Part shown: positions 3,751 to 57,709 of the stretch, one piece after another
Layout of the letters: the number at the start of each line of letters is the position of its first letter
Position numbering within the stretch: the stretch's first letter is position 1
The notes under the pieces: model-generated
Seen by the model: the letters and a program-made list of their open reading frames with translations, nothing else
Told to the model about the DNA's origin: nothing
The model's database searches: none
Origin: Candidatus Sungiibacteriota bacterium
GTDB taxonomy: Bacteria; Patescibacteriota; Minisyncoccia; Sungbacterales; HO2-52-23
Length of the DNA stretch: 64,000 nucleotides
Assembly (NCBI GenBank): GCA_016180435.1
Contig: JACPBG010000002.1
Span: 144,682 to 208,681, forward strand
Direction of reading: 5' to 3'
Translations under genes and position numbers: made by a program

Positions 3751-3840
3751 CGAATCCAATACGAATTTACGAATAAACGAATGGTTCGATACTGCTCACC
3801 ATAAATTCGTATATTCGTAAGCCATTCGTAATTCGTAGAT
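3751..3840. repeat. ACGAAT/ATTCGT-rich imperfect palindrome (family copy 1), beginning CAACGAATAACGAAT across the stop codon of the upstream gene
   Basis: Left arm acgaataacgaatccaatacgaatttacgaataaacgaatgg approximately pairs with right arm ccataaattcgtatattcgtaagccattcgtaattcgt. The same CAACGAATAACGAAT motif recurs at 26744 and 41981. The 3' end ATTCGTAGATA...ATTATG resembles the 3' end of the nrdD-splitting copy. Confidence 0.6.
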
Positions 3841-4452: not shown

Positions 4453-4603
4453 GTGTTTTTCTCGGCGGTTTTTTTGGTTGTGGGAATAGGTCGACAGGAG
4501 TCGGCGACGTTCTAACGGGGTAAACCATAATTCAATCTCTCTTTGCGTTATTCCTGTTGCCGTGTTAGGGTCGGGACAGAGTTCTTTTCATCGCGGTGTT
4601 TTT

Positions 4604-7261: not shown

Positions 7262-7393
7262 GGGTAATTTTTACCCAGCTAGAGGTTCGGAATTGGACGT
7301 TGATTTAAAATAAGATATAAAGCGAAAACGGCTTACGCCCTGCATTATAAGTTAAAGAAAGACGACTTTAAACCTCTGACTGGGCTTACTAAT

Positions 7394-13037: not shown

Positions 13038-14516
13038 ATGTCCAACATCCAATCAGTCATCAAAAACATCCAAGATATCATGCGTAAAGACGCGGGCGTG
13101 GATGGCGACGCCCAGCGGCTCTCCCAGCTTGTCTGGATGCTTTTCCTGAAAATTTTTGATGACCAGGAGCGCGAGCGCGAGCTTATCAATCCCAAATATC
13201 GCTCACCCTTGCCCGAGGATCTCCGCTGGCGCAACTGGGCAGGCGACCCGGAAGGAATGACCGGCGACGGGCTTCTGGAATTCGTCAACAACAAGCTTTT
13301 CAAACGGCTGAAGGATTTGTCTTTTGACGAGAGCGAAGACCCTCGGGCTTTTATCGTTCGCGAGGTGTTTGCCGACAGCTACAACTATATGAAGTCCGGC
13401 ACCCTTATCCGGCAGGTCATTAACAAAATAAACGAAATTGATTTTAATAAAGCCGACGACCGTCACGCCTTCAACGACCTCTACGAACATCTGCTCAAAG
13501 AGCTCCAAAGCGCGGGCAACGCAGGGGAGTATTACACGCCCCGGCCGCTCACGCGTTTTGTGGTAGAGATGGTTTCCCCTAAACTTGGCGAAAAGGTGCT
13601 GGATCCGGCCTGCGGCACCGGCGGATTTTTGATTGACACTCTGGAATACATCCGTAAGCAGGAAATAAAAACCGCGGCGGATGAAAAGAAACTCCAAAGC
13701 CAAATACAAGGAGTAGAACTCAAGTCGCTACCATATTTATTAGCTACGACAAATATGATTTTGCACGGCGTGGACACGCCAAAGCATTTGCGCCATGGCG
13801 ACATGCTTTCCCAACCATTGCGGGAATATGGGCCGAAAGATCGCGTTGATGTGATTGTGGCCAATCCGCCATTTGGAGCCGATGTCAAAGATGGCATAGA
13901 GAAAAACTTTCCGACCGAATTCCGCACCCGCGAAACTGCCGACCTCTTTTTGGTACTTTTTATTCATCTTTTAAAACCAAACGGCCGCGCCGGCATCGTG
14001 CTTCCCGATGGCTCGCTTTTCGGCGAGGGCGTTAAAACCGCCATCAAGAAAAAACTCCTTGAAGAGTGCAATGTGCATACCATTGTCCGCCTGCCGCAAG
14101 GCGTGTTTAATCCGTACGCCGGAGTAAACACCAACCTAATTTTCTTCACCAAAGGCGAACCCACCAAAGAAATCTGGTACTACCAGCTTCCGCTCCCCGA
14201 AGGCGTCAAACAATACACCAAAAACCGCTGCATCACAGACGCAGATTTTGATCAAGTTAGAGAGTGGTGGAATAAAAGAAAGGATAATGCGCTTGCCCCG
14301 TTAGAGGCCGCGAGGGCTCGCAGCGTGTCTTCGCCTCTAATGGGGTGGAAAGTATCAATCAAACAAATCCAAGAACGAAACTACAATCTGGACTTCAAAA
14401 ACCCGAACGGCAATGCAAAACTCGTCCACAAAGACCCGAAAGAAGTTTTGGAGAGCATCGCCAAAACCGAATTCCACATTGCCAAAATTTTGGAGGAGAT
14501 AAAGAAAGAGATATGA
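13038..14516 (+). CDS. hsdM: Type I R-M N6-adenine DNA methyltransferase subunit
   Basis: SAM motif I VLDPACGTGGFL and motif IV VIVANPPFG. Contains an in-frame 50-nt palindromic repeat near its 3' end. Confidence 0.9.
   Translation: MSNIQSVIKNIQDIMRKDAGVDGDAQRLSQLVWMLFLKIFDDQERERELINPKYRSPLPEDLRWRNWAGDPEGMTGDGLLEFVNNKLFKRLKDLSFDESEDPRAFIVREVFADSYNYMKSGTLIRQVINKINEIDFNKADDRHAFNDLYEHLLKELQSAGNAGEYYTPRPLTRFVVEMVSPKLGEKVLDPACGTGGFLIDTLEYIRKQEIKTAADEKKLQSQIQGVELKSLPYLLATTNMILHGVDTPKHLRHGDMLSQPLREYGPKDRVDVIVANPPFGADVKDGIEKNFPTEFRTRETADLFLVLFIHLLKPNGRAGIVLPDGSLFGEGVKTAIKKKLLEECNVHTIVRLPQGVFNPYAGVNTNLIFFTKGEPTKEIWYYQLPLPEGVKQYTKNRCITDADFDQVREWWNKRKDNALAPLEAARARSVSSPLMGWKVSIKQIQERNYNLDFKNPNGNAKLVHKDPKEVLESIAKTEFHIAKILEEIKKEI
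14296..14345. repeat. Small palindromic element (CCCCGTTAGAGGC ... GCCTCTAATGGGG) lying inside the hsdM reading frame
   Basis: 13-nt inverted termini with one mismatch enclose a GC-rich core cgcgagggctcgcagcgtgtcttc. The termini match the CCCCGTTAGAG/CTCTAACGGGG family at 24074 and 49561. The hsdM frame stays open through it (peptide ALAPLEAARARSVSSPLMGW). Confidence 0.5.
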
Positions 14517-16015
14517 AAAATATTTTGTCTTTAAACGCAAAAGAAGCTCGGAAATTCTTTCTTAAGCACGAAAGTTATTGTAATTTTGACTTACCGCCCT
14601 ATTTCAAGTTTGATAGTATTCTAAACGACCTGTCTAATACTCTTAAAAACACGAACTTATCTAATTTTTATTCGTCAACAAAAAAGCCGTGGGACTTTGA
14701 AGATGTTAATTACAGATTAACAAGTAACAAAGACGGGAAATATGCGTGGCGACCACTTCAACTTATACATCCGGCCTTGTATGTAAACCTAGCTCATATC
14801 ATCACTGAACCAAAGAACTGGAAGGACTTGAAAGCTCGCTTTACTTTTCTAATGAGGGAAAGTCGCAATATTGAGTGTGAGGGTCTGCCAGTGATTTCTT
14901 CTTACTATAGAAAAGACCGAGCAGCACAAATAATCCACTGGGTAGATAAAGTGGAAAAAAAATCTATCAAGTATGCTCTCGCATACGATTATGTACTACA
15001 CACGGATATCACTGATTGTTACGGAGCAATATATACACACTCGATATCGTGGGCGCTACACGATAAAAGTGTCGCCAAAGACAGGCGTCATGATGATTCT
15101 CTGTGTGGTAATAAGATCGATAGACAACTGCAAGCCATGTCAAATGGTCAAACGAACGGCATTCCGCAGGGTAGCGTCCTCATGGATTTTATTGCTGAGT
15201 TGGTTTTGTGCTATGCGGACAGCTTGCTTGCACAACAAATTTCTACCATTAAAAAGTCAGAATACCGCATTATCAGATACAGGGACGACTATAGAATTTT
15301 TACGAACCATTCACAGATTGCAGAACAAATAATGAAAGAGCTTACCGATGTTCTACATAATTTAGGATTAAAAATAAGTTCCTCAAAAACCAAAGGGACG
15401 GATAAAGTAGTACATTCATCAATCAAAGAGGACAAATTGTATTGGTTTGCGCATGGACGTAATCATGATAAATTGCTCCACGAACTACTCAACATATCTT
15501 TGTTTGCGGAGAGTTTTCCTAATTCAGGTCAATTAACGATCCTGCTTAATAGCGTTTATTATAGAATAATAGATTTGTATAGAAAGGATATAAAAGAAGA
15601 TATCACAGCCCTTATTAGTGTTGCGGTTGATATTGCGTATAAAAATCCGAGGGTTTATCCAATCGCGACTGCAATCATTAGTAAGCTTATAGACTTTCTT
15701 CCAAAATCCAAAAGAGAAAAGGCAATCCAAAAAATATTACAGAGATTCAAAAAACTTCCTAACACTGGGATAATGCAAATTTGGCTGCACAGGATAACGG
15801 TTAAGCTTGGTGGAAATTATGACCATTCCGAAAGATTGTGCACAAAAGTAGTAGATCCAAACGTGAAGATTTGGAATTCTGATTGGCTGAAGACAATGCT
15901 TCGTAGAAAAATTGATATTTGTAATGTAATTGACGCAGATGAACTTATAAAGATTGGAGCCGTGATCGGTAAAGATGAGGTTGAACTATTCAAGGTTACC
16001 GACTACTCATATTAA
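14512..16015 (+). CDS. Reverse transcriptase (Abi/UG-class, defence-associated type) encoded between hsdM and hsdS
   Basis: RT motifs LHTDITDCYGAIYTHSI (motif 1-like), NGIPQGSVLMDFIAELVL (motif 4, QG) and RIIRYRDDYRIF (motif 5, YxDD). ATG at 14512 overlaps the hsdM stop (ATGA). The track's longer ORF (14345) begins inside hsdM. Confidence 0.7.
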
Positions 16016-16527: not shown

Positions 16528-17796
16528 ATGTCTACCTACCCAACAAAAAAACTCGGAGAAGTATTGGATTACGAACAACCCGGGAAGTATATCGTAAATT
16601 CCAAGAATTACAGTAACGACTATAAAACGCCGGTTTTAACAGCTGGTAAAACTTTTATATTGGGAAATACAGATGAAAAAGAAAACGTATTCCCATCTGA
16701 AAAGTTACCGGTAATAATTTTTGATGATTTTACTACTACTATAAAATTTGTTGATTTTCCCTTTAAGGTTAAGTCTTCGGCAATGAAGATTTTGCATGCT
16801 AAAAAAGGTGTAGCAGATATCAAATATTTATTTTATTTAATGCAAACCATAGAACTCAATCATGCAACGCATAAACGATATTGGATATCAGAATTTTCTC
16901 AATTAGAAATCCCTCTCCCGCCGCTTTCAGAGCAGAAGAAAATCGTGACGAGGTTGGAAGGGTTGCTGAAGAAAATTAAGGAGGCCAAGCGCTTGCGCGC
17001 CGAAGCGCAAGAAGCCGCCCAAAACCTCCTCCCCGCCGAACTCCACCGCATCTTCACTCAACAGGATTCTTATTCTCTAATTCGCGCGAATAAGCGAATA
17101 GTTGGAAAACTTACCACAACACACAAACAACATACTTACAAACTTGAGAATGTAAGGATGTTTAATAAGTCCGCCTCCGTTAAAACTTCGGCGGATAAAT
17201 GGGAAGAAAAAGAGTTGGGAGAAATTTGCGAATTGAATCCAAAAAAATCAGAAATAAAAGATAAGGCAGACGATTTTCTTGTTTCTTTTGTTCCAATGTC
17301 TGCTGTTGATGAATACTTGCAAGCGATCGTATTATTGCAGGAACGAAGTCTGGGTGAAGTGAGAAAGGGCTATACTTATTTTAAAAATGGCGATGTTTTG
17401 TTTGCAAAAATTACTCCGTGCATGGAAAATGGGAAAGTCGCTATCGCAAGGAATTTAAAAAACAGCATTGGTTTTGGCACTACGGAATTTCATGTTTTTC
17501 GGGCAAAAAAGAAAGTTTTGCCGGAATGGATTCATTATATTATCGGTCAGCCGTCTTTCCGGGAAATTGCCAAAACCAGAATGACCGGAAGTGCGGGACA
17601 AAAGCGAGTGCCAGTGCAATTTCTAGAAAAATTTAAAATCCCGCTCCCGCCCGTTGCGGAGCAGAAAAAAATCGTGTCGCGGCTGGACTCGCTTTCCGAA
17701 AAAATCAAAAACCTGCGAGAGTATCAGAAAGACACCAAGTCCAACATGCAAAACTTGGAGCGATCTATACTGTATAAAGCATTTGAGAGCAAATAG
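16528..17796 (+). CDS. hsdS: Type I R-M specificity subunit
   Basis: Two TRDs, each followed by the conserved coiled region (LPPLSEQKKIVTRLEGLLKKIKEAKRL and LPPVAEQKKIVSRLDSLSEKIKNLRE). Confidence 0.85.
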   Translation: MSTYPTKKLGEVLDYEQPGKYIVNSKNYSNDYKTPVLTAGKTFILGNTDEKENVFPSEKLPVIIFDDFTTTIKFVDFPFKVKSSAMKILHAKKGVADIKYLFYLMQTIELNHATHKRYWISEFSQLEIPLPPLSEQKKIVTRLEGLLKKIKEAKRLRAEAQEAAQNLLPAELHRIFTQQDSYSLIRANKRIVGKLTTTHKQHTYKLENVRMFNKSASVKTSADKWEEKELGEICELNPKKSEIKDKADDFLVSFVPMSAVDEYLQAIVLLQERSLGEVRKGYTYFKNGDVLFAKITPCMENGKVAIARNLKNSIGFGTTEFHVFRAKKKVLPEWIHYIIGQPSFREIAKTRMTGSAGQKRVPVQFLEKFKIPLPPVAEQKKIVSRLDSLSEKIKNLREYQKDTKSNMQNLERSILYKAFESK

Positions 17797-20720: not shown

Positions 20721-22163
20721 ATGATTTGCATGAAAAAAATAAATTATTTAATTATTGGAGGCGGAATTGCCGGAACAACCGCCGCCGAAACCATTCGCCG
20801 CCATGATCCTGTGGGAAGTATGGCCATTGTGTCGGATGAGCCGTATCGCCTGTATTCGCGGATAATGCTTTCCAAGCCGAATTTTTTTCTGGAGAAAATT
20901 CCTTTTGACCAGATTTGGCTGAAAAAAGAGTCATGGTATGCGGAAAATAACATTCAGGTGATTCTTGGGAAAAGCGCCGTAAAACTTAACCCGCAGGCCA
21001 AGATAGTTACTTTAAATACCGGGGAAGAACTGGAATATGAAAAATTGCTTTTGGCAGTTGGCGGATGCGCCCGGCGCTGGGATCTTCCGGGAGCGGAGAG
21101 GCGCGGTATTTTTTATCTGCGAACATTGGACGACGCTAAAGCAATTATGACAGCGGTTAACCCCGTTAGAACGGATACTTCGCGATTGGCCGAAGGCGGC
21201 ATTGAATCACCACCTCTTATATCTGCCTTAACCGTCGACCCGCTTCGCCATAGCTTTAGCGAGGCGAGCAGGAGTAAGCGGCGTTCTAACGGGGTAAAAA
21301 CTGCCCGACATGCGGTGGCTATTGGCGGAGGTTTTGTCAGTTTTGAAATGTGCGACATGTTGCGTTTGGCCGGAATTGACGTAACATTGCTTTTGCGGGA
21401 ATCTTATTTTTGGGAGCCGGTTCTGGACGAGACATCGGGACGCATGATCGAGGCGGCACTGGAAAAAGGCGGCGTTAAGATTATGCGGAATACCGAGGTT
21501 GGCAAAATAATCGGCCAGGATCGGGTGGAGGCAGTTGAGATTAACGGCGGAAAAAAAATCGCTTGCGATATGTTGATAGTCGGGATCGGAGTTTTTTGTC
21601 CTTTGGCCTGGCTGGAGGTCGCCGGGGTAAAAGTGGGGCGGGGGATATTGGCTAACGAGTATTTGGAAATCAATTTTCCCTATATATGGGTTGCGGGGGA
21701 CGCGGCGGAATTCAAGGATTTGATACTTGGCGAGCAGATTCAGCTTGGAAATTGGGTGAACGCGCAGATGCAGGGCAGGATAGCGGGGATGAATATGTCT
21801 GGATCCCTCGACCCGCTTCGCCCGCAAAGCGAGGCGAGCAAGCTCAGGACAAGAAAGGAGCCATTTCGCATGGTTTCGTTTTATACCACGATTGGTTTTG
21901 GCATTACCATTGCATTTGTAGGGGATGTCCGGCCGATGGAGGGCCGGACCATAATTTTGCGCGGTTCGGCCGATGCCGGATCTTACGTCCGGGTCATTGT
22001 AAAAGGCGGAGAAATAATCGGCGCCACCCTGATAAATCGCACCCAGGAGCTTGGACCAATTTCCAAACTGATTGAAAAGGACTTTAAAATCGCGGGGCGC
22101 GAAAAAGAGCTTGCGGACACATCTTTTGATCTGAAAAAATTGATTGAGAATTTGAAATCATAA
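20721..22163 (+). CDS. FAD/NAD(P)-dependent pyridine-nucleotide-disulfide-type oxidoreductase carrying two in-frame repeat insertions
   Basis: FAD Rossmann YLIIGGGIAGTTAAETI; second Rossmann HAVAIGGGFVSFEMCDML; C-terminal GDAAEF. Between them lie atypical inserts NPVRTDTSRLAEGGIESPPLISALTVDPLRHSFSEASRSKRRSNGVKTAR and SLDPLRPQSEASKLRTRK, encoded by GC-rich repeats. Confidence 0.7.
   Translation: MICMKKINYLIIGGGIAGTTAAETIRRHDPVGSMAIVSDEPYRLYSRIMLSKPNFFLEKIPFDQIWLKKESWYAENNIQVILGKSAVKLNPQAKIVTLNTGEELEYEKLLLAVGGCARRWDLPGAERRGIFYLRTLDDAKAIMTAVNPVRTDTSRLAEGGIESPPLISALTVDPLRHSFSEASRSKRRSNGVKTARHAVAIGGGFVSFEMCDMLRLAGIDVTLLLRESYFWEPVLDETSGRMIEAALEKGGVKIMRNTEVGKIIGQDRVEAVEINGGKKIACDMLIVGIGVFCPLAWLEVAGVKVGRGILANEYLEINFPYIWVAGDAAEFKDLILGEQIQLGNWVNAQMQGRIAGMNMSGSLDPLRPQSEASKLRTRKEPFRMVSFYTTIGFGITIAFVGDVRPMEGRTIILRGSADAGSYVRVIVKGGEIIGATLINRTQELGPISKLIEKDFKIAGREKELADTSFDLKKLIENLKS
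21234..21295. repeat. GC-rich hairpin repeat (CGACCCGCTTCGCC...AGCGAGGCGAGCAGG) plus a TTCTAACGGGG half-site, inside the oxidoreductase CDS
   Basis: Shares CGACCCGCTTCGCC and AGCGAGGCGAGCA with the second copy at 21807-21843. gcgttctaacggggtaa also occurs at 4510 and 27718. Confidence 0.5.
21807..21843. repeat. Second copy of the GC-rich hairpin repeat inside the oxidoreductase CDS
   Basis: ctcgacccgcttcgcccgcaaagcgaggcgagcaagc is in frame and encodes a non-conserved 18-aa insert. Confidence 0.5.
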
Positions 22164-24015: not shown

Positions 24016-24073
24016 TCGATCACCATCTTTTTTATCATACCGCCGAATTTCGGCGGATTTTTTAGTGGGTGGA

Positions 24074-24174
24074 CCCCGTTAGAGATTTAACCAACGATAA
24101 AACATGGGTTACGAGTTATCCCGCAGTCAGGCATGCTCCTACCGGCGTAGTTTCGTTCCGCATCTCTAACGGGG
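24074..24174. repeat. MITE-like element with terminal inverted repeats CCCCGTTAGAGATTTA ... ATCTCTAACGGGG
   Basis: 13-nt perfect terminal inverted repeats enclosing ~75 nt. The same termini occur at 49561..49657, with variants at 14296, 38812 and 57156. Confidence 0.6.
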
Positions 24175-24264
24175 TGGATAAGTTTTGTTGTATTAGAATT
24201 ATATGTAGGTTATATTTAAAATATCAAGAAGGTCGAATAGTTATAAATAATCGGCACTTTAATT

Positions 24265-26738: not shown

Positions 26739-26871
26739 AAAATCAACGAATAACGAATCATACGCGAATATGCGAATTTATAGTGAGCCTGTCGAACTAT
26801 TCGTTAATTCGCTTCATATTCGCTATTCGTTGATATCGCAGAATGAAAAATAAAACTCGTCAGCGCTGTGA
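26651..26871. mobile_element. 212-bp insertion in nrdD flanked by a 9-bp direct repeat GCGCTGTGA (26651-26659 and 26863-26871); it carries a stop, the ACGAAT palindrome and an outward ATG
   Basis: Removing the insert and one repeat copy restores ...YCPRCEVYSRVVGYYRPVEQWNEGKQAEFVERKEYD, a contiguous NrdD C-terminus. The interior contains the CAACGAATAACGAAT...ATTCGTTGATAT palindrome (26739-26842) and TTTATAGTGAGCCTGTCGAACTAT, which also occurs at 13017-13040. Confidence 0.7.
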
Positions 26872-27010: not shown

Positions 27011-27699
27011 CATTCGGCGGTTGGCAGAAAATAAGCTTGCTTGATTTCCCCGGCAAGATTTCATCCATTCTTTTTACCAACGGATGCGTGTTCCGTTGCA
27101 GTTTTTGTTACAACCCGGGATTGGTGGAGCCGCCATTTAAAACAGTGATAAGTGAGGAAACCGTCCTTAAGTATTTGGCGGAGCGCGCCAATGTCTTGGA
27201 AGGAGTGGTCATAACCGGCGGCGAGCCGACTATTCACGCTGACCTCCCGGAATTTTTGAAAAAAATTAAATTACTTGGATATCCGGTAAAACTTGATACC
27301 TGCGGTTACTTGCCGCATGTTTTGGAGCGTCTGATCGGAGAAAAATTGATTGACTATGTTGCTATGGATATTAAGGCGCCTTTGGCAAAATATGCGGCTA
27401 TAACCCGGGTTCCGGTTAACCCGGATTTTATCTCAAAAAGTATCAATATCATTATGTCCTCCGGGATTCCGTATGAATTTAGGTCAACTTTAGTGGAGGG
27501 TGTTCATAACGCCGAAGATATAGTTCGGATGGCGCAAATGATTTTAGGGGCGGATATGTATTATCTCCAGTTGTTTCGGACGTCCCCAGTTCTGCTAAAT
27601 CCGGATTTTTTATCCAAACGAGCTCCATTGCGCAGTCAGTTGGAAGTTGCGGCTGATCGATGCCGGCTGTATGTCAAGCGCTGCGAAATCCGCGGATAA
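27007..27699 (+). CDS. nrdG: Anaerobic ribonucleotide reductase activating enzyme (radical SAM)
   Basis: CVFRCSFCYNP (CxxxCxxC radical-SAM cluster) near the N-terminus; GGEPT SAM-binding motif; adjacent to nrdD. Confidence 0.85.
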   Translation: MTFGGWQKISLLDFPGKISSILFTNGCVFRCSFCYNPGLVEPPFKTVISEETVLKYLAERANVLEGVVITGGEPTIHADLPEFLKKIKLLGYPVKLDTCGYLPHVLERLIGEKLIDYVAMDIKAPLAKYAAITRVPVNPDFISKSINIIMSSGIPYEFRSTLVEGVHNAEDIVRMAQMILGADMYYLQLFRTSPVLLNPDFLSKRAPLRSQLEVAADRCRLYVKRCEIRG

Positions 27700-27849
27700 C
27701 TTTGACAGGAATTGATGGCGTTCTAACGGGGTTAAGAGTGCATAACTTAATTTGATTCGTCTTTTTGGGGATAGTATGCTAAAAACAGATTATATAATTA
27801 AGTCCGAACCGTCCCTTTTTCAAAGGGGCGTGGGGATTTTTTACTAACT

Positions 27850-33118: not shown

Positions 33119-33739
33119 TTGATAGTAAACTATCGAGGTTTAGCCTCTATAAGTAAGCATATGGCATTTCCTCTTAATTTTTCTTATTCACCCCCATCTA
33201 GTGTTCGCCAGTTATCGCCCGGCAAAGCCGCACTTGTTTTGTTAGGAATAGGCATTCTGGGCGCAGGGCTTACAACTTTTTTGGGTATTCCTATGCTGAT
33301 GAATGCTACGGCAAGTCAAAGTTGGCCAGCGGTTGAAGGCGTGATCAAGATATCGGAATTTACCACTAACCGGGATCGTGATGACGGAGGTGTAACTTAT
33401 GGGGCGAGCATTGTTTATGACTACACGGTTAAGGGCACGGTTTATAGCGGATCTAATGTTCACTTCGGCCAATATAGCACGAGCGACCCCAGTTACGGCC
33501 GCGGCCTGGTGAATCGTTATCCGGTGGGGGAGCAGATAAATGTTTATTATGATCCGAATGATCCCTCGATTTCAGTATTGGAACCCGGCGCCGGGTGGAG
33601 CAGTTTTATGGTAGTGGGTATAGGGGCGCTTTTTACTCTTTTAGGATTTATTGGCGGTTTTTTCCAGTTTAAAAAATATAAGCGGGGAGAACCATTCGCC
33701 TCACAACCTGCTTCTGTCTCGCCCACAATTAGTAATTAA
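33119..33739 (+). CDS. DUF3592-family membrane protein
   Basis: N-terminal TM (ALVLLGIGILGAGLTTFLGIPML); central W..VEG.I...........YG.SIVYDYTVKGTVYSG....YPVGEQINVYYDPNDPSISVL pattern; C-terminal TM. Confidence 0.5.
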   Translation: MIVNYRGLASISKHMAFPLNFSYSPPSSVRQLSPGKAALVLLGIGILGAGLTTFLGIPMLMNATASQSWPAVEGVIKISEFTTNRDRDDGGVTYGASIVYDYTVKGTVYSGSNVHFGQYSTSDPSYGRGLVNRYPVGEQINVYYDPNDPSISVLEPGAGWSSFMVVGIGALFTLLGFIGGFFQFKKYKRGEPFASQPASVSPTISN

Positions 33740-33774
33740 ATTGTGCCGATCTAACGGGGTGGATAACTTTATGG

Positions 33775-38810: not shown

Positions 38811-38811
38811 T

Positions 38812-39042
38812 CCCGTTAGAAGCCGCGATCGCATATCGGGATTTAAATACCGTTAAATATTTCGAGTTTAATATAAATAATAACAAAGCAGATTGTATTA
38901 GTTGATCGCGATCCCGGTACCACAAATCCTGTCGGATTTGGCTACGGGACAAGTATGATCAAAACAAAGATTATTTTAAGCATGTCTCGCCCCGTAGTCA
39001 CCAAGTGTACGAGGTGTACTATCGGGGTCTGCTTCTAACGGG
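38812..39042. repeat. MITE-like element (CCCGTTAGAAGCCGCGATCGC ... CTGCTTCTAACGGG) directly abutting the ATG of the 39043 gene
   Basis: The first 26 nt are identical to the copy at 57156. It ends ...tctgcttctaacggg immediately before the ATG at 39043, and carries a ~115-nt extra internal segment relative to the 57156 copy. Confidence 0.6.
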
Positions 39043-41970
39043 ATGAAGACCTTAATAACAGTAAATCGAAAATTATTGCTGGCCATCTTATTTTTAGTGA
39101 GCGTAGCATTTACCGAAGCCGGGGCGACTGCCAACGACTCTTCCATAACTCTTAAAAAACCCCCGGGCGCGGAACGATTTATTTTGACCATTAACGATCC
39201 TGATGGAATTCAGGAGTTTTCGCTTTCTCCGGCCGCGCAATTCCGTTACGGCGGAATGTTGAGCGGCTGCAATAAGTCATTTTCGATTAAGGATGTATCC
39301 TTCAATGACCCGGCTGATTTTACGCCCAAGATGCCTGCCTATGTTATTGATTGTCAGAACAATACTCTGGAGCTTGAAATTTTTACTCCGGTTAAAGGGA
39401 TAGCTAAAAGTGTTGCGGTAAAAAAAGAAGCTCCGGCGCCGTCCCCGACGCCTGTAGAGAATTTAGAACTTAGAACCGAGAACTTAGCAAAACTTCCCGA
39501 AAAAAAGGGGCCTTTGTTGGCCGAAGACATTCGGTATCCGGTGCCCGAATTGGGAAATTGCCAAAGCGAGGCCGAATGCCGTTCGTATTGCGATAATGTT
39601 AATCACGCTAAGGAGTGCCTGGCATTTGCCAAGAAATATAATCTGATTTCAGCAGGAGAAGCCCAGGAAGCGGCTGATAAATTCCTTAATGTTAAAAATG
39701 GCCCCGGCGGCTGCAATTCCTGGTCTTCTTGCGAAAATTATTGCAATTCAATTGATCATCTGGATGCATGTATTACTTTTGCCGAGGAGACCGGTTATTA
39801 TTCCGGCGATAAATTGGCCGAGGCCCGAAAATTTCAAGGCCTGATAAAATCCGGGGAGAAATTTCCCGGAGGATGCCGCGATCGGAACTCCTGTGAAATT
39901 TATTGCGGCGACCCCAATCATATGGAAGAATGTTTGGATTTTGCCGAAAAAAGCGGCTTTATGCCCAAAGAGGAAATAGCGGAGGCCAGAAAATTCATGG
40001 CTTTAATGCGTAAAGGCGAGAGCCCGGGCGGATGCACCTCCAAAGAACAATGTGAAAAATATTGTTTTGAAGAAGATCATATGAATGAGTGTATTGATTT
40101 CGGTCTGAAAGCGGGAGTTATGACCGAGGAGGAGGCAGTAATGGCCCGAAAAGTTGGAGGAAAAGGTCCGGGCGGATGCCGCAGTAAAACGCAATGCGAT
40201 GCGTATTGCGAAGAACATTCCGAGGAGTGCTTTAATTTTGCCAAGGAGCATGGATTGATGAGTGAAAAAGACCTGGAACGAATGAGCAAGGGAATGGAAC
40301 AGTTCCGCGCTAATCTTGAAAAAATGCCTCCGGAAGCAGTTCAGTGTCTTGAGGATGCTATCGGCGAAGAAAATTTTGAGAAAATCAAAAATGGACAGCC
40401 GATTTTTGATAGAAGCATGGAAGGAAAAATGAAATCCTGTTTTGGACGGATGAGCGCCGATTTCAGTAAAAAGTTAGAGAAGCTCCCGCCCCAAGCCACG
40501 CAATGCATTAAAGATGCGGTGGGGGAAGAAGGACTGCAAAAATTACAAAGCGGAGAATTCGGCGAAGATCTTAATTTTGAATCATTGGAAGGATGTTTTA
40601 AGGCATTGCAGCAATCGTTGGGCGGAGGAGGTAATTTTAGCAAAGGCGGATTTGAGGGCCCCGGCGGATGCAAAAGCATGGAAGAATGCGTAGAGTATTG
40701 TACTGCCCATCATGAGGAGTGTGCGGGTTTTAGTCCTCCGGGTGGAGGCGGCGGAGGATTTCAGCGGGGTGATGGAGGATTTCAGGGCGGTGGACCGGGA
40801 GGATGCAGGAGCGAGGAAGAATGCCGGTCTTATTGCGAGGAACATCCGGATGAATGTGGCGGCGGGGGCGGTATGGGCGGTGGCGGCAGTAATGGTGTAA
40901 ATACGGGCGGTGGATTTAACGGACCCGGCGGCTGCGCTTCTATAGAGGGATGCATCGTATATTGCCGATCGCATACGGAAGATCGCGAATGCCGGGCTTA
41001 TACAGGCGGCGGAGAAGGGGGCGCGGGTTTTTCCGGTCCGGGCGGCTGTGCATCCATAGAGGATTGCGTGAGATATTGCCAAGCGCATTTTCAAGATCAA
41101 GAGTGCCAAGCCTACATAGGAGGCGGTGGCGGCGGGGGAGGAAACATTGGCGGCAATTCGCCAAGTTGCGCTCCGGCGCCTTTGGGCTTAGTCAGTTGGT
41201 GGAAAGGGGAATCAAGCGCGCAAGACAGTGCTGACGGAAATAGCGGAGCTCTTTCCGGAGGAGCTGGTTTTGCTGATGACGGAAAAGTCGGGAAGGCGTT
41301 TAAATTTAATAAAGGCAGCGTCAATATCGGAAATCCCGCTAATCTGAATTTCGGGACCGGGCCATTTTCTTTGGAGGCCTGGTTTCGCTGGGACGGCGGA
41401 GAAGGCGTAAATAATATCATCCGAAAATCAAACTATCCTTCCAGCGGCCCCGGATCGGGATATTGGTTCAGGGTAGGCAATGGAACCCTGGAATTTTCGA
41501 TTGGAGAAACTACCCAATCCGAAGGCCAGACCATTATTACCGCGCCCGTGGCTTCCGGAGTTTGGCATTATGCCGTTGGCACGAAAGATGATTCCGGCGG
41601 CGTTAAGTTATATGTGGATGGCGAGTCCCGGGGAACTATCCTGCGGTCTGCTCCCGGTACGCAATCAACAAGTGATGATCAGTTTACACTCGGATCATGG
41701 CGGGCGAGCTCCGAATTTTTTTCCGGCCTGATCGATGAGGTTTCCGTATATAACCGAGCGCTTAACGCGTCAGAAGTCCAGGCCATTTTCAATGCGGGTA
41801 ATGCGGGTAAATGCTCTGTTCAGTCAAGTCCCGCGCCAATTCCTCCGCCCGGCGGCCAAATCCCTCCGGAATATTGTTCATATTTTACAGCCGTACCAAG
41901 TTGTTCCTATGTTGGTCCGGCGGGATCGCAAGATTATAATTACTGCAAGCAGTGTTTTCCGGATAAATAA
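39043..41970 (+). CDS. Secreted Cys-rich repeat protein (8x ~45-aa C4H modules), Gly-rich spacers, C-terminal concanavalin/LamG-like domain
   Basis: Signal peptide MKTLITVNRKLLLAILFLVSVAFTEA. Repeats GPGGCNSWSSCENYCNSIDHLDACITFAEETGY, PGGCRDRNSCEIYCGDPNHMEECLDFAEKSGF and others. GGGG runs. C-terminal LIDEVSVYNRALNASEVQAIF fits Laminin_G_3. Confidence 0.7.
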   Translation: MKTLITVNRKLLLAILFLVSVAFTEAGATANDSSITLKKPPGAERFILTINDPDGIQEFSLSPAAQFRYGGMLSGCNKSFSIKDVSFNDPADFTPKMPAYVIDCQNNTLELEIFTPVKGIAKSVAVKKEAPAPSPTPVENLELRTENLAKLPEKKGPLLAEDIRYPVPELGNCQSEAECRSYCDNVNHAKECLAFAKKYNLISAGEAQEAADKFLNVKNGPGGCNSWSSCENYCNSIDHLDACITFAEETGYYSGDKLAEARKFQGLIKSGEKFPGGCRDRNSCEIYCGDPNHMEECLDFAEKSGFMPKEEIAEARKFMALMRKGESPGGCTSKEQCEKYCFEEDHMNECIDFGLKAGVMTEEEAVMARKVGGKGPGGCRSKTQCDAYCEEHSEECFNFAKEHGLMSEKDLERMSKGMEQFRANLEKMPPEAVQCLEDAIGEENFEKIKNGQPIFDRSMEGKMKSCFGRMSADFSKKLEKLPPQATQCIKDAVGEEGLQKLQSGEFGEDLNFESLEGCFKALQQSLGGGGNFSKGGFEGPGGCKSMEECVEYCTAHHEECAGFSPPGGGGGGFQRGDGGFQGGGPGGCRSEEECRSYCEEHPDECGGGGGMGGGGSNGVNTGGGFNGPGGCASIEGCIVYCRSHTEDRECRAYTGGGEGGAGFSGPGGCASIEDCVRYCQAHFQDQECQAYIGGGGGGGGNIGGNSPSCAPAPLGLVSWWKGESSAQDSADGNSGALSGGAGFADDGKVGKAFKFNKGSVNIGNPANLNFGTGPFSLEAWFRWDGGEGVNNIIRKSNYPSSGPGSGYWFRVGNGTLEFSIGETTQSEGQTIITAPVASGVWHYAVGTKDDSGGVKLYVDGESRGTILRSAPGTQSTSDDQFTLGSWRASSEFFSGLIDEVSVYNRALNASEVQAIFNAGNAGKCSVQSSPAPIPPPGGQIPPEYCSYFTAVPSCSYVGPAGSQDYNYCKQCFPDK

Positions 41971-49560: not shown

Positions 49561-49657
49561 CCCCGTTAGAGATTTATAGAATATCGAACCCAGTTAAGAA
49601 AAAAATCATATTTTCATCTATATAGTTGGGTCTTGTCGCTCCATATCTCTAACGGGG
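49561..49657. repeat. MITE-like element with terminal inverted repeats CCCCGTTAGAGATTTA ... ATATCTCTAACGGGG
   Basis: Terminal inverted repeats identical to the copy at 24074..24174. AT-rich interior. Lies between the terminators of the giant gene and the 3' end of the minus-strand gene 49675..50187. Confidence 0.6.
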
Positions 49658-54325: not shown

Positions 54326-54760
54326 ATGAATTTTTTATCGAAAATTAATCCGGAGTGGCCTTTGCGCCTTGGCCTTGGTATAATGTATTTGTATTCGGGT
54401 TATGATCTGATGTTAAACCCCAGTGCCTGGATTTGGGCTGTGCCCTGGTGGTTTTCAAAAATAGTAACTTTTTTAATGCCGCTTGATTCTTATTTACGAT
54501 TGCAGGGCGCAGGAGAGTTTATTATGGGAGTTTTGTTTCTGGCCCCATTAGAATTAATTTTAACGGGGCGAGCGTGGTTTTCTATCAGACATGTATTACG
54601 GGTTGTTTCTATACTGGCGGTGATTGAGCTTGTTGGCATACTTATTTTTACGGGGATTGGGCCGATTACCTTTCGTGATATCGGGCTTTTGGGAGGGGCG
54701 ATTGCGCTCTTAGTTATGACGTTTTCTACCCAAAGAGAAATTTCAGGTAAAGTCGAATAA
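54326..54760 (+). CDS. Small DoxX-like polytopic membrane protein
   Basis: LRLGLGIMYLYSGYDLMLNP with four TM helices; similar topology to the 24265 protein. Confidence 0.4.
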   Translation: MNFLSKINPEWPLRLGLGIMYLYSGYDLMLNPSAWIWAVPWWFSKIVTFLMPLDSYLRLQGAGEFIMGVLFLAPLELILTGRAWFSIRHVLRVVSILAVIELVGILIFTGIGPITFRDIGLLGGAIALLVMTFSTQREISGKVE

Positions 54761-57150: not shown

Positions 57151-57155
57151 TGAAT

Positions 57156-57271
57156 CCCGTTAGAAGCCGCGATCGCATATCAAGATATAAAAATCATTGT
57201 GAATTACCAATTAAATATAAATTATAAACATAGTAAATCGCATCAATTGATCGCGATCTGCTTCTAACGGG
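57156..57271. repeat. MITE-like element (CCCGTTAGAAGCCGCGATCGC ... GATCGCGATCTGCTTCTAACGGG) directly abutting the ATG of the cupredoxin gene
   Basis: ~21-nt terminal inverted repeats. Same family as 38812..39042, with 26/26 identity at the 5' end. Ends immediately before the ATG at 57272. Confidence 0.6.
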
Positions 57272-57709
57272 ATGAATAAATACGCCATCTTAATTATAAT
57301 AGGTGTCCTGATTATCGGTTTCGGTGTTTTTTACCGCGCGTTTTTGTTGTCGGATGAGGCCAAGCCGGTAACAACCGGAAAAGTTCGCGAAGTGACAATC
57401 ATCGCCAAAAAAAACGAATGGCGGTTTGTGCCGGAAGTTATTGAAGCCGAGCGCGGGGATAAGATTGTGATAACCGCGGTGAATGAGGATGATTATGACC
57501 ACGGGATTGCCATTGACGCTTTTGGGCAATCCCAAAGAATGCCGGCGCGTTCCACCATAAAAATGGAATTTGTAGTAACCCAGGAAGGGGAGTTCCCGTT
57601 TTATTGCTCGGTGCCTTGCGGAGAAGGGGATGTGGACGGGAAACATAGGACCCATTTTGATATGATAGGGAAGTTGGATGTAAAAAGTGTGGTGAGTTCA
57701 ACGCAGTGA
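57272..57709 (+). CDS. Membrane-anchored cupredoxin-domain protein with a CuA-like ligand pattern
   Basis: N-terminal TM YAILIIIGVLIIGFGVFY. C-terminal FYCSVPCGEGDVDGKHRTHFDM fits C-x3-C-G-x-H-x2-M as in CuA/COX2-type cupredoxins; an upstream His lies in DDYDHGIAID. Confidence 0.55.
   Translation: MNKYAILIIIGVLIIGFGVFYRAFLLSDEAKPVTTGKVREVTIIAKKNEWRFVPEVIEAERGDKIVITAVNEDDYDHGIAIDAFGQSQRMPARSTIKMEFVVTQEGEFPFYCSVPCGEGDVDGKHRTHFDMIGKLDVKSVVSSTQ

What the first reader, a model, noticed from the sequence alone, without database searches (positions are those of the whole stretch)
24074..24174. MITE-like family with CCCCGTTAGAG / CTCTAACGGGG inverted termini, including an in-frame copy inside hsdM
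Two copies of about 100 nt (24074-24174 and 49561-49657) share perfect 13-16-nt inverted termini but have unrelated interiors. A 50-nt version with the same termini (one mismatch) lies inside the hsdM frame at 14296-14345 without breaking the frame. Half-sites (GCGTTCTAACGGGGTAA) occur at 4510, 21285 (inside the oxidoreductase CDS) and 27718. CTAACGGGGTGGATAA(C/G)TTT recurs at 24165 and 33750. This is reminiscent of Rickettsia palindromic elements that insert in-frame into genes.
Basis: seen in the sequence. Interest (0 to 1): 0.6.

Follow-up and report, generated by a model that had tools for sequence, protein, structure and literature searches.

The report
Frame-preserving miniature transposons inside bacterial genes
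The repeats are real copies of a tiny mobile DNA element, found in many uncultivated bacterial phyla, whose ends and length let it land inside protein-coding genes without breaking the reading frame.

Summary
The window comes from a Candidatus Sungbacteria (Patescibacteria) genome. It holds seven complete copies (26-233 nt) and three solo ends of an element defined only by its termini, CCCCGTTAGAG...CTCTAACGGGG.

Orthologue comparisons show clean insertions. One adds 16 aa to HsdM. A homologous copy sits at a different HsdM site in another genome. A third adds 46 aa (134 nt plus a 4-nt duplication) to an FAD oxidoreductase.

Collection scans hit their 120-locus limit twice. Across 232 copies, 118 are flanked by exact 4-nt direct repeats with consensus YNNR. 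These are target-site duplications, so this is a MITE-type DNA transposon.

Lengths of 3n+2 dominate. With the 4-bp duplication they keep the reading frame, and they put both terminal stop codons into a single frame. Inside genes almost only such lengths occur, so the copies are translated, as PVRD...SNGV or PLE...LTG loops.

Interiors are unrelated between copies. Some are covarying hairpins and three are whole tRNA genes.

No transposase was found. The 4-bp duplication and CCCC ends point to an IS1380/piggyBac-like enzyme, which is inference only.

The element works like Rickettsia palindromic elements but is not a member of that family. No prior description was found in the library searched.

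The parts
24074..24174 (.). Focal copy, 101 nt (3n+2). It is intergenic, between the cytochrome c terminator and the DoxX-nrdD genes. Flanked by the direct repeat TGGA (24070-24073 and 24175-24178).
   Evidence: Predicted to fold as a long hairpin, z = -3.9. Identical and in the same orientation in 5 independent assemblies.
49561..49657 (.). Copy of 97 nt (3n+1), intergenic, downstream of two terminator-like hairpins. Flanked by the direct repeat TTTG.
   Evidence: Fold z = -5.5.
14296..14345 (.). 50-nt copy inside hsdM (13038-14516). It is translated as ...APLEAARARSVSSPLMG... and is a net 48-nt insertion relative to empty orthologues.
   Evidence: At least 17 homologous copies of this 50-nt subfamily occur in other genomes.
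21161..21294 (.). 134-nt copy inside the FAD-dependent oxidoreductase gene (20721-22163). With a TAAA duplication it adds 138 nt, or 46 codons (NPVRT...RRSNG). It carries a nested small palindrome of a second family.
   Evidence: The inserted residues 148-193 have pLDDT of about 24 in the AF2 model.
38811..39043 (.). 233-nt copy of a variant subfamily (TCCCGTTAGAAGCCGCGATCGC...CTGCTTCTAACGGGA). Intergenic, ending at the ATG of ORF 39043-41970.
57155..57272 (.). 118-nt copy of the same variant subfamily, flanked by the direct repeat TGAA, ending at the ATG of the cupredoxin-like ORF 57272-57709.
   Evidence: Fold z = -7.1.
54543..54568 (.). 26-nt minimal copy consisting of termini only (CCCCATTAGAATTAATTTTAACGGGG), inside ORF 54326-54760, read as APLELILTG.
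4480..4520 (+). Solo right end (…GACAGGAGTCGGCGACGTTCTAACGGGG). No left partner. Its subterminal sequence resembles the right end of the 21161 copy.
27690..27731 (+). Solo right end of the same subtype, just after the stop codon of the radical-SAM activase gene.
33735..33769 (+). Solo right end plus about 10 nt of flank (GATCTAACGGGGTGGATAACTTT). It is paralogous to the right end and flank of the 24074 copy.
7274..7384 (.). Possible degenerate relative (CCCAGCTAGAGGTT...AACCTCTGACTGGG) with flanks TTTA/CTTA. Membership is uncertain.

Best explanation
These are copies of a superfamily of non-autonomous DNA transposons (MITEs).

What defines the element. The only conserved part is an 11-13-bp terminal inverted repeat, CCCCGTTAGAG(R)(N). 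Everything between the two ends is free cargo of 4 to more than 200 nt. The cargo can be unrelated sequence, one or two short hairpins, or a complete tRNA gene.

How it moves (inferred). A transposase supplied in trans binds the two ends. It inserts the element at a YNNR tetranucleotide (wider preference G|YNNR|C) with a 4-bp staggered cut, which leaves a 4-bp target-site duplication. The enzyme is most likely a DDE/DDD transposase of the IS1380/piggyBac type. That assignment rests only on the duplication length and the CCCC ends.

Why it survives inside genes. Elements of length 3n+2 add 3n+6 bases once the duplication is counted, so the reading frame is kept. At that same length, the single stop codon in each terminus (TAG on the left, TAA on the right) falls into one and the same frame. 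Two of the three insertion phases, in either orientation, are therefore read through.

Such copies persist in gene-dense genomes as short hydrophilic, probably disordered loops (xPVR[DGE]...SNG[VA] or [TA]PLE...[SP]LTG). Copies of other lengths survive only between genes.

What is shown and what is inferred. Shown: insertion polymorphism, the target-site duplication, target preference, the length and frame rule, and translation-compatible survival. Inferred: the type of transposase, and cargo capture through use of any two suitably oriented ends.
For: - Motif excess in the window: 11 matches against 0.69 expected.
- hsdM: filled and empty alleles exist, and a homologous 50-nt element sits at two different sites of orthologous genes.
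- Oxidoreductase: the empty orthologue reads GCGGTCAAAACGG and the filled one GCGGTTAA[134 nt]TAAAAACTG. That is 134+4 nt with the protein context AV|KTA kept. PDB homologues also lack the segment.
- Exact 4-nt direct repeats flank 65/114 and 53/118 copies, against about 0.4% expected. Non-palindromic cases (TTTG, CTTA) rule out a longer inverted repeat as the explanation. The flank logo is G|YNNR|C.
- Lengths: 81/114 short copies are 3n+2.
- After removing the element plus one repeat in silico, 55/128 copies of length 3n+2 lie inside open reading frames, against 10/84 copies of other lengths.
- Stop codons are depleted in 3n+2 copies even between genes: 2.14 open frames against 1.76±0.11 in shuffles. 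Other lengths show no depletion.
- Cargo includes tRNA-Thr twice and tRNA-Ala once.
- piggyBac elements have a 4-bp duplication, CCC ends and IS1380 as prokaryotic relatives (PMC10813416). IS1380 members capture neighbouring DNA by misrecognising ends (PMC9330008).
Against: - No transposase or autonomous element with these ends was found. The search covered the 64-kb window and about 1.65 Mb of fetched loci.
- The two hsdM copies do not show a clean duplication. Net gains are 48 and 54 nt, and both share a 7-nt left flank G(C/A)GCT(C/T)G, which a simple cut-and-paste model does not predict.
- About half of all copies lack an exact duplication.
- The inner hairpins of the 59-68-nt subfamily keep pairing through compensatory changes at 15 of 27 pairs. 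A double-stranded DNA cut-and-paste model does not require that.
- The strict piggyBac target TTAA is rare here.
- Phylum labels come from metagenome bins. The one 'archaeal' contig carries a TonB gene and is probably mis-binned.
Confidence: 0.8

Rival explanations
1. The elements are primarily mobile structured-RNA modules. The conserved stem CCCCGUUAGAG/CUCUAACGGGG would be an RNA processing or protein-binding site, for example for RNase III, that releases or stabilises the enclosed RNA (hairpins, tRNAs). DNA mobility would be secondary.
For: - All copies fold into a closing stem with strongly negative z-scores.
- In the 59-68-nt subfamily, 15 of 27 predicted pairs show compensatory double changes, and some loops are UUCG- or GNRA-like.
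- Three tRNA genes sit exactly within the stem, continuing the acceptor helix.
Against: - No Rfam family matches.
- Loop sequences occur in both complementary forms at the same position (TTTG and AAAG). That fits a DNA palindrome as well as an RNA.
- Genic copies obey a strict frame rule, so they are translated and not removed.
- Templated quasi-palindrome correction during replication could produce the compensatory changes without selection (established mutational mechanism, not tested here).
- The target-site duplications show a DNA insertion mechanism whatever the RNA role.
Confidence: 0.12
2. The elements are single-strand hairpin transposons of the IS200/IS605 (PATE) or REP/REPIN-RAYT type, moved by a HUH tyrosine transposase that recognises DNA hairpins.
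For: - They are small palindromic elements with conserved hairpin structure.
- No nearby transposase was found, as with REPINs, which are served by a single-copy RAYT gene.
Against: - Exact 4-nt direct repeats that vary from copy to copy within one subfamily flank half of all copies. HUH transposition leaves no duplication (established knowledge).
- The termini are symmetric inverted repeats, not asymmetric subterminal hairpins with a fixed cleavage tetranucleotide.
- There is no conserved GTAG-like 5' tetranucleotide.
Confidence: 0.04
3. The inverted repeats are sites for a site-specific recombinase that flips the enclosed segment. On this reading they are invertible promoters, or 'invertons', upstream of genes such as DoxX-nrdD, the 975-aa lectin-domain protein and the cupredoxin gene.
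For: - Several copies sit directly upstream of genes (24074, 38811, 57155).
- Identical inverted repeats bracket unrelated DNA of 100-230 nt, as at invertons.
Against: - The focal copy is identical and in one orientation in five independent assemblies.
- Copies as short as 26-50 nt exist, and copies lie inside coding sequences.
- Target-site duplications and empty orthologous sites indicate insertion, not inversion.
- No recombinase gene lies nearby.
Confidence: 0.02
4. The 10-11-mer is a DNA uptake sequence or an operator for an abundant DNA-binding protein. It would be over-represented by selection in place and often paired as inverted repeats, and would not be mobile.
For: - The short motif is about 80 times over-represented.
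- Competence genes (ComEC, type IV pilus) are common in the same loci.
Against: - Whole units, ends plus interior, are present or absent at orthologous sites.
- The same 50-nt unit recurs in many genomes.
- Exact flanking duplications are present.
- The motif is shared by several phyla, whereas uptake sequences are lineage-specific (established knowledge).
Confidence: 0.02

Closest known systems
Rickettsia palindromic elements (RPE; Ogata et al. 2000, as summarised in PMC10969869)
   Same: Both are small palindromic selfish DNA that inserts in frame into unrelated protein-coding genes and is translated as an extra peptide segment.
   Different: RPEs are about 100-150 bp families with conserved interiors, confined to Rickettsia. 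This family is defined only by 11-13-bp termini, makes a 4-bp target-site duplication, ranges from 26 to more than 230 nt and is found in several phyla. No sequence relationship was shown.
Stowaway/Tourist-type MITE superfamilies of plants, and Tn3-derived TIMEs of Pseudomonas (PMC4133298)
   Same: In all of these, many families share only a short terminal inverted repeat and a fixed duplication length. Interiors are unrelated, and pairs of ends can mobilise whatever lies between them.
   Different: The termini, duplication lengths (TA, TWA, 5-6 bp) and transposases all differ. None of those families is reported to follow a 3n+2 length rule or to live mainly inside genes.
IS1380 family / piggyBac superfamily transposons
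   Same: Both show a 4-bp target-site duplication with T...A at its outer positions and termini beginning CCC (PMC10813416). IS1380 members capture neighbouring DNA by using surrogate ends (PMC9330008).
   Different: The strict TTAA target is rare here (consensus YNNR). No IS1380/piggyBac-type transposase, and no autonomous element with these ends, was found. The link is an inference.
Correia/NEMIS elements of Neisseria, and ERIC, BOX and RUP elements
   Same: All are abundant bacterial MITEs that fold into long RNA hairpins when co-transcribed and can sit at gene boundaries.
   Different: Each of those is confined to one genus or family, has a conserved interior and (Correia) a TA duplication, and is only occasionally intragenic.
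REPIN/REP elements served by RAYT transposases
   Same: Both are short palindromic doublets present in many copies with no transposase next to them, and hairpin structure is maintained.
   Different: REPINs have no target-site duplication, carry a conserved 5' tetranucleotide, and are extragenic and species-specific.

Membership tests
MITE (non-autonomous terminal-inverted-repeat DNA transposon) | Terminal inverted repeats | tested here: met
   11 bp were fixed by the search pattern. Positions 12-13 pair in more than 90% of 227 copies. In the window, the two focal copies have 13 perfect bp.
MITE (non-autonomous terminal-inverted-repeat DNA transposon) | Target-site duplication of fixed length | tested here: met
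   Exact 4-nt direct repeats flank 118/232 copies. In the window they are TGGA, TTTG and TGAA. The oxidoreductase empty site gives TAAA.
MITE (non-autonomous terminal-inverted-repeat DNA transposon) | Small, with no transposase gene, and present in many copies | tested here: met
   Copies are 26-233 nt. The window holds 7 copies and 3 solo ends in 64 kb. Both collection scans hit the 120-locus limit.
MITE (non-autonomous terminal-inverted-repeat DNA transposon) | Presence/absence polymorphism at orthologous sites | tested here: met
   hsdM sites A and B. Oxidoreductase site.
MITE (non-autonomous terminal-inverted-repeat DNA transposon) | A cognate autonomous element with the same ends | tested here: inconclusive
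   None was found in the window or in 1.65 Mb of loci. Whole genomes could not be searched.
IS1380/piggyBac-derived element | 4-bp target-site duplication and CC(C) termini | tested here: met
   compared with PMC10813416.
IS1380/piggyBac-derived element | TTAA target (piggyBac proper) | tested here: not met
   TTAA is 1 of 65 and 1 of 53 exact duplications. The consensus is YNNR, with TTTA, TCAA and TAAA commonest.
IS1380/piggyBac-derived element | DDD/DDE transposase of that family acting on these ends | not testable with these tools
   No candidate gene was found. Testing needs whole-genome searches and biochemistry.
Rickettsia palindromic elements | In-frame insertion into protein-coding genes | tested here: met
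Rickettsia palindromic elements | Sequence homology to RPE-1 to RPE-10, and occurrence in Rickettsia | not tested
The host here is Candidatus Sungbacteria, so membership is not claimed.
REP/REPIN-RAYT or IS200/IS605 PATE | No target-site duplication, asymmetric hairpin ends with a fixed cleavage tetranucleotide | tested here: not met
   Variable 4-nt direct repeats and symmetric termini.
Integron attC site | Order RYYYAAC ... GTTRRRY, cassette arrays next to intI | tested here: not met
   The order here is the reverse (GTTAGAG ... CTCTAAC). Copies are dispersed and there is no integrase.
Known structured RNA families (Rfam 15) | Match to a covariance model | tested here: not met
   Only one tRNA was found in the whole window at gathering score. 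Nothing meaningful appeared around the focal copy at E up to 10.

The most novel reading that the evidence does not exclude
This is a pan-bacterial MITE superfamily that has evolved to live inside protein-coding genes. The stop-codon placement of its ends and its 3n+2 length, combined with a 4-bp duplication, would make two thirds of insertions silent for the reading frame in either orientation. It would thereby keep adding short disordered loops to the proteomes of gene-dense, streamlined bacteria such as Patescibacteria. It would also move tRNA genes and small structured RNAs between genomes and phyla.
Probability: 0.45. Interest if true: 0.85.

Novelty: new variant of a known kind. Interest (0 to 1): 0.72.

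Why it matters
Patescibacteria and the other phyla that carry the element have compact, gene-dense genomes, where ordinary transposons are expected to be costly.

A transposon that is neutral for the reading frame would explain how selfish DNA persists in such genomes. It would also be a steady source of small insertions in otherwise conserved proteins. Two such insertions occur in one oxidoreductase here, and different ones occur in different HsdM orthologues.

The practical consequences are:
- The peptide signatures PVRD...SNGV and PLE...LTG can be used to flag these insertions in predicted proteomes and in alignments. There they inflate apparent divergence and lower structure-prediction confidence.
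- tRNA genes riding inside the element suggest a route for horizontal spread of decoding capacity.
- The element offers a defined 11-bp end and a 4-bp target with which to search for a new transposase active in uncultivated bacteria.

Tried and rejected
- **Cyanobacterial origin.** Suspected from GCGATCGC inside two copies. Only 2 HIP1 sites are present, and the proteins point to Parcubacteria.
- **Rfam matches.** None found.
- **Transposase in the window.** Pfam and NCBIfam scans of 30 ORFs found none. The 479-aa ORF next to the 233-nt copy is a polytopic membrane protein.
- **Autonomous element in 1.65 Mb of fetched loci.** I searched for long-range end pairs with duplications, for general inverted repeats around ORFs, and for proteins recurring across loci. 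Only housekeeping genes turned up.
- **Phage vector.** One hit in IMG/VR for the short class and none for the long class.
- **Empty site for the focal 24074 copy.** Neighbours of the DoxX-like gene are not syntenic in related genomes.
- **Extending the window.** Look-ups of the edge genes gave nothing or a 2.6-kb contig.
- **AlphaFold model of HsdM.** Mean pLDDT 46, uninformative. Alignment to PDB 3UFB is unreliable over the inserted segment.
- **Archaeal occurrence.** The single 'Methanosarcinales' contig carries a TonB C-terminal domain gene beside the element, so I do not claim archaea.
- **Splicing or excision at the RNA level.** Rejected because only frame-preserving lengths survive inside genes.
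- **Literature.** No paper in the library contains the motif in this context or describes such a family.

Full report

The sequences are as described. CTCTAACGGGG with at most one mismatch occurs 11 times in the window, against 0.69 expected, and none of 100 shuffles reaches that number. The 10-mer core with at most one mismatch occurs 17 times.

The sites are not scattered. They form convergent pairs, CCCCGTTAGA...TCTAACGGGG, at seven places:

| Coordinates | Length (nt) | Note |
|---|---|---|
| 14296-14345 | 50 | in hsdM |
| 21161-21294 | 134 | in the oxidoreductase gene |
| 24074-24174 | 101 | focal copy, intergenic |
| 38811-39043 | 233 | variant ends TCCC...GGGA |
| 49561-49657 | 97 | intergenic |
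| 54543-54568 | 26 | minimal copy |
| 57155-57272 | 118 | variant ends TCCC...GGGA |

There are also three solo right ends, at 4511, 27722 and 33750. All tested copies are predicted to fold into a long hairpin closed by the termini, with z-scores from -3.3 to -7.1. No Rfam family matches.

**2. Host.**

The proteins are closest to Parcubacteria. The oxidoreductase is 100% identical to a protein of a Candidatus Sungbacteria MAG with a 209,783-bp contig. The same genome segment is present in several independent assemblies of sequencing runs.

**3. Are they insertions?**

hsdM. Orthologues that are 91-94% identical over the aligned part are 476 aa long and lack 16 residues that the window protein has, NA[LAPLEAARARSVSSPLMG]WK. 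At the DNA level this is a 48-nt gain that contains the 50-nt element. Two other contigs share it.

A different pair of contigs is empty at this site. They carry a homologous element about 690 nt upstream, at a second site, with a 54-nt gain: CCCCGTTAGAGACCGCGAGGGCTCGCAGCGTG...CTCTAATGGGG. The same small unit at two positions of one gene family, with empty alleles for both, is direct evidence of mobility.

Other orthologues carry PVRD...SNG peptides at yet other positions. These peptides are the termini read in the other open frame. This last point is inferred from the peptide sequences.

Oxidoreductase. PDB homologues align to residues 6-145 and 195-475 and skip the segment between. Parcubacterial orthologues of 410-413 aa lack 46 residues.

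The empty orthologue reads GCGGTCAAAACGG. The window reads GCGGTTAA[134 nt]TAAAAACTG. That is the element plus a 4-nt duplication (TAAA, with one synonymous change in the left copy). It totals 138 nt, or 46 codons, and turns AV|KTA into AV-NPVRT...RRSNG-VKTA.

A third genome has a 104-nt version at the same site. In a moderate AlphaFold model, the inserted residues 148-193 have pLDDT of about 24 and no secondary structure. This is consistent with a tolerated loop.

**4. The family outside the window.**

A scan of JGI metagenomes for N55-85 did the same. About 2-4 chance matches were expected for the genome scan (my estimate).

The labelled genomes are many Patescibacteria (Parcubacteria, Saccharibacteria), Omnitrophota, Planctomycetota, Nitrospirota, Elusimicrobia, Verrucomicrobiales and Cloacimonadota. 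Some hits lie on contigs of 0.16-1.7 Mb, so the spread over phyla does not rest on small, possibly mis-binned contigs.

The single 'Methanosarcinales' contig has a TonB C-terminal domain gene next to the element. I treat it as mis-binned and do not claim archaea. Viral contigs hold almost none.

**5. Anatomy from 232 copies.**

- **Flanks.** 65 of 114 short and 53 of 118 long copies are flanked by exact 4-nt direct repeats. Chance expectation is 1 in 256.
- **The repeats vary within a subfamily.** For the 50-nt type they include TCAA, TGAA, TTGA, TTCA, TTTA and TCTA. They are therefore target-site duplications and not part of the element.
- **They are not a longer inverted repeat.** Non-palindromic cases such as TTTG and CTTA exclude that reading.
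- **Target consensus.** The duplication consensus is YNNR, and the wider logo is G|YNNR|C. In the window the repeats are TGGA (24074 copy), TTTG (49561) and TGAA (57155).
- **Termini and interior.** Beyond the 11 fixed bases, positions 12 and 13 still pair in more than 90% of copies but vary in sequence. Further in, there is no common sequence. Interiors are unrelated between most copies.

**6. The frame rule.**

Lengths are strongly periodic. 81 of 114 short copies are 3n+2 (47, 50, 53 ... 71). In eight of nine successive triplets of length, the 3n+2 class is the commonest.

With a 4-bp duplication, such a copy adds a multiple of three. Each terminus also has exactly one stop codon: TAG at positions 7-9 on the left and TAA in the mirrored position on the right. 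Only when L = 3n+2 do both stops fall in the same frame, leaving the two other frames open in both orientations. This follows directly from the sequence.

I removed each element and one repeat in silico and asked whether a long open frame spans the junction. This holds for 36/79 and 19/49 copies of length 3n+2, but for only 3/25 and 7/59 copies of other lengths. Inside genes, then, essentially only frame-preserving copies survive. They must be translated and not removed from the RNA.

The encoded peptides are xPVR[DGE]...SNG[VA] or [TA]PLE...[SP]LTG, and they are rich in R, G, S, D, E, K and P.

Stop codons are depleted in the interiors of 3n+2 copies, measured as open frames out of the four candidates:

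| Copy class | Observed open frames | Shuffled interiors |
|---|---|---|
| 3n+2, inside genes | 2.89 | 2.22±0.12 |
| 3n+2, between genes | 2.14 | 1.76±0.11 |
| 3n, between genes | 0.79 | 0.66±0.11 |
| 3n+1, between genes | 0.59 | 0.59±0.10 |

In the short class the 3n+2 bias also holds for intergenic copies (43 of 65). In the long class it does not (30 of 82). The evidence for an intrinsic 'design', as opposed to a filter after insertion, therefore rests on the short subfamilies and on the stop-codon depletion.

**7. Cargo and structure.**

A 59-68-nt subfamily has the closing stem plus two inner hairpins. The hairpin sequences differ completely between genomes while pairing is kept. RNAalifold finds compensatory double changes at 15 of 27 pairs.

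This points to a constraint on single-strand structure, RNA or DNA, that a plain double-strand cut-and-paste model does not need. It could also come from templated correction of quasi-palindromes during replication. I could not separate these possibilities.

Three of 61 tRNA genes in the fetched loci lie exactly between the termini, with the stem continuing the acceptor helix. These are tRNA-Thr(CGU) twice, one of them with a TAAA duplication, and tRNA-Ala(UGC) once with variant ends. One copy contains a nested 29-nt copy (L182).

**8. Mechanism.**

Terminal inverted repeats, a fixed 4-bp duplication with a symmetric target preference, and filled and empty alleles define a MITE-type DNA transposon moved in trans. 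I found no transposase:

- not in the window;
- not between long-range end pairs in 1.65 Mb of loci;
- not among proteins recurring across loci, which are housekeeping genes.

A 4-bp duplication with T...A outer bases and CCC(C) ends is the hallmark of piggyBac, whose prokaryotic relatives are the IS1380 family (PMC10813416). IS1380 members are also known to mobilise neighbouring DNA by using surrogate ends (PMC9330008). That would account for the arbitrary cargo and for the solo end plus flank that is duplicated at 33750. From my own knowledge of ISfinder, IS1380 elements make 4-5-bp duplications and begin with CC.

This assignment is an inference. The strict TTAA target is not met.

Points the model does not explain:
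- The two hsdM copies lack a clean duplication and share a 7-nt left flank.
- Only about half of all copies have an exact duplication.

**9. Rivals.**

- An invertible-promoter reading is contradicted by identical orientation in five assemblies, by 26-50-nt copies and by genic copies.
- HUH-type hairpin transposition and REP/RAYT are contradicted by the duplications.
- Uptake sequences or operators are contradicted by unit-wise presence and absence.
- RNA-level excision is contradicted by the frame rule.
- A primary RNA function remains possible as an added layer (hairpin covariation, tRNA cargo) but is not needed to explain the data.

**10. Comparison and novelty.**

Functionally, the closest analogue is the Rickettsia palindromic element, the textbook case of selfish DNA inserted in frame (PMC10969869). 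Structurally, the closest are MITE superfamilies defined only by their ends, namely plant Stowaway/Tourist and bacterial TIMEs (PMC4133298).

This family differs in four ways:
- its ends and its duplication;
- its spread over several bacterial phyla;
- the 3n+2 rule coupled to stop-codon placement;
- tRNA cargo.

Full-text searches found no description of it. That covers open-access papers and bioRxiv only. I class it as a new variant of a known kind.

**11. Verdict.**

The finding is real. The identity of the transposase and the meaning of the conserved hairpins remain open.

Noticed in passing
window 21807-21854 and 21233-21280: A second, unrelated small palindromic element (CGACCCGCTTCGCC...GCGAGGCGAGCA). 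One copy is a 48-nt, 16-aa in-frame insertion in the same oxidoreductase gene (SLDPLRPQSEASKLRT) and is absent from orthologues. The other is nested inside the 134-nt copy of the main family.
   Followed up: partly
window 14345-16015; L001 5457-7296; L005 4016-7771: The gap between hsdM and hsdS of this type I restriction-modification operon holds different cargo in different genomes. Here it is a reverse transcriptase. In L001 it is a SMODS/CD-NTase gene set. In L005 it is a PHP-SMC/AAA protein. It looks like a hotspot for defence genes.
   Followed up: no
L177 2593-2684; L229 4501-4592; L183 about 3708-3820: Complete tRNA genes (Thr-CGU twice, Ala-UGC once) lie exactly between the element termini. 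The terminal stem continues the acceptor stem, and L229 has a TAAA duplication.
   Followed up: partly
window 24145-24185 versus 33727-33770; L210 10250-10272: The right end of the focal copy, together with its flank (TTCCGCATCTCTAACGGGGTGGATAAG), recurs as a solo end at 33750. The part up to TGGA also recurs in a metagenome copy. This suggests one-ended or aberrant transposition, or that TGGA belongs to this subfamily's end.
   Followed up: partly
window 39034-39045 and 57263-57274: Both copies of the TCCC...GGGA subfamily end exactly at the predicted ATG of the downstream ORF (CTTCTAACGGGATGAA). The start codon is formed by the last base of the element and the flanking TGAA.
   Followed up: no
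window 3767-3820, 17071-17100, 26742-26834: Another set of AT-rich palindromes is built from CGAATA/TATTCG units downstream of genes. It may be a further repeat family or a set of terminators.
   Followed up: no
L170 4780-6471: Three 106-107-nt copies with related interiors lie 700-900 nt apart. Each is flanked by TAAA in the same wider context (GGGTAAA...TAAACCC), as if a gene-plus-element unit had been tandemly duplicated.
   Followed up: no
alignment A1 (hsdM orthologues P0007, P0008, P0026, P0036, P0069): Other short lineage-specific insertions lack the PVRD/PLE signature (SLGVGGASPKV, ACPEHRRG, VGPPSTSSGQA, LASTKPTGEGGWG). Further families of small in-frame insertions may exist in these genomes.
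   Followed up: no
L035 (contig JAIWAR010000050.1, labelled Methanosarcinales archaeon): The contig carries a TonB C-terminal domain gene beside the element, so it is probably a bacterial contig placed in an archaeal bin.
   Followed up: partly
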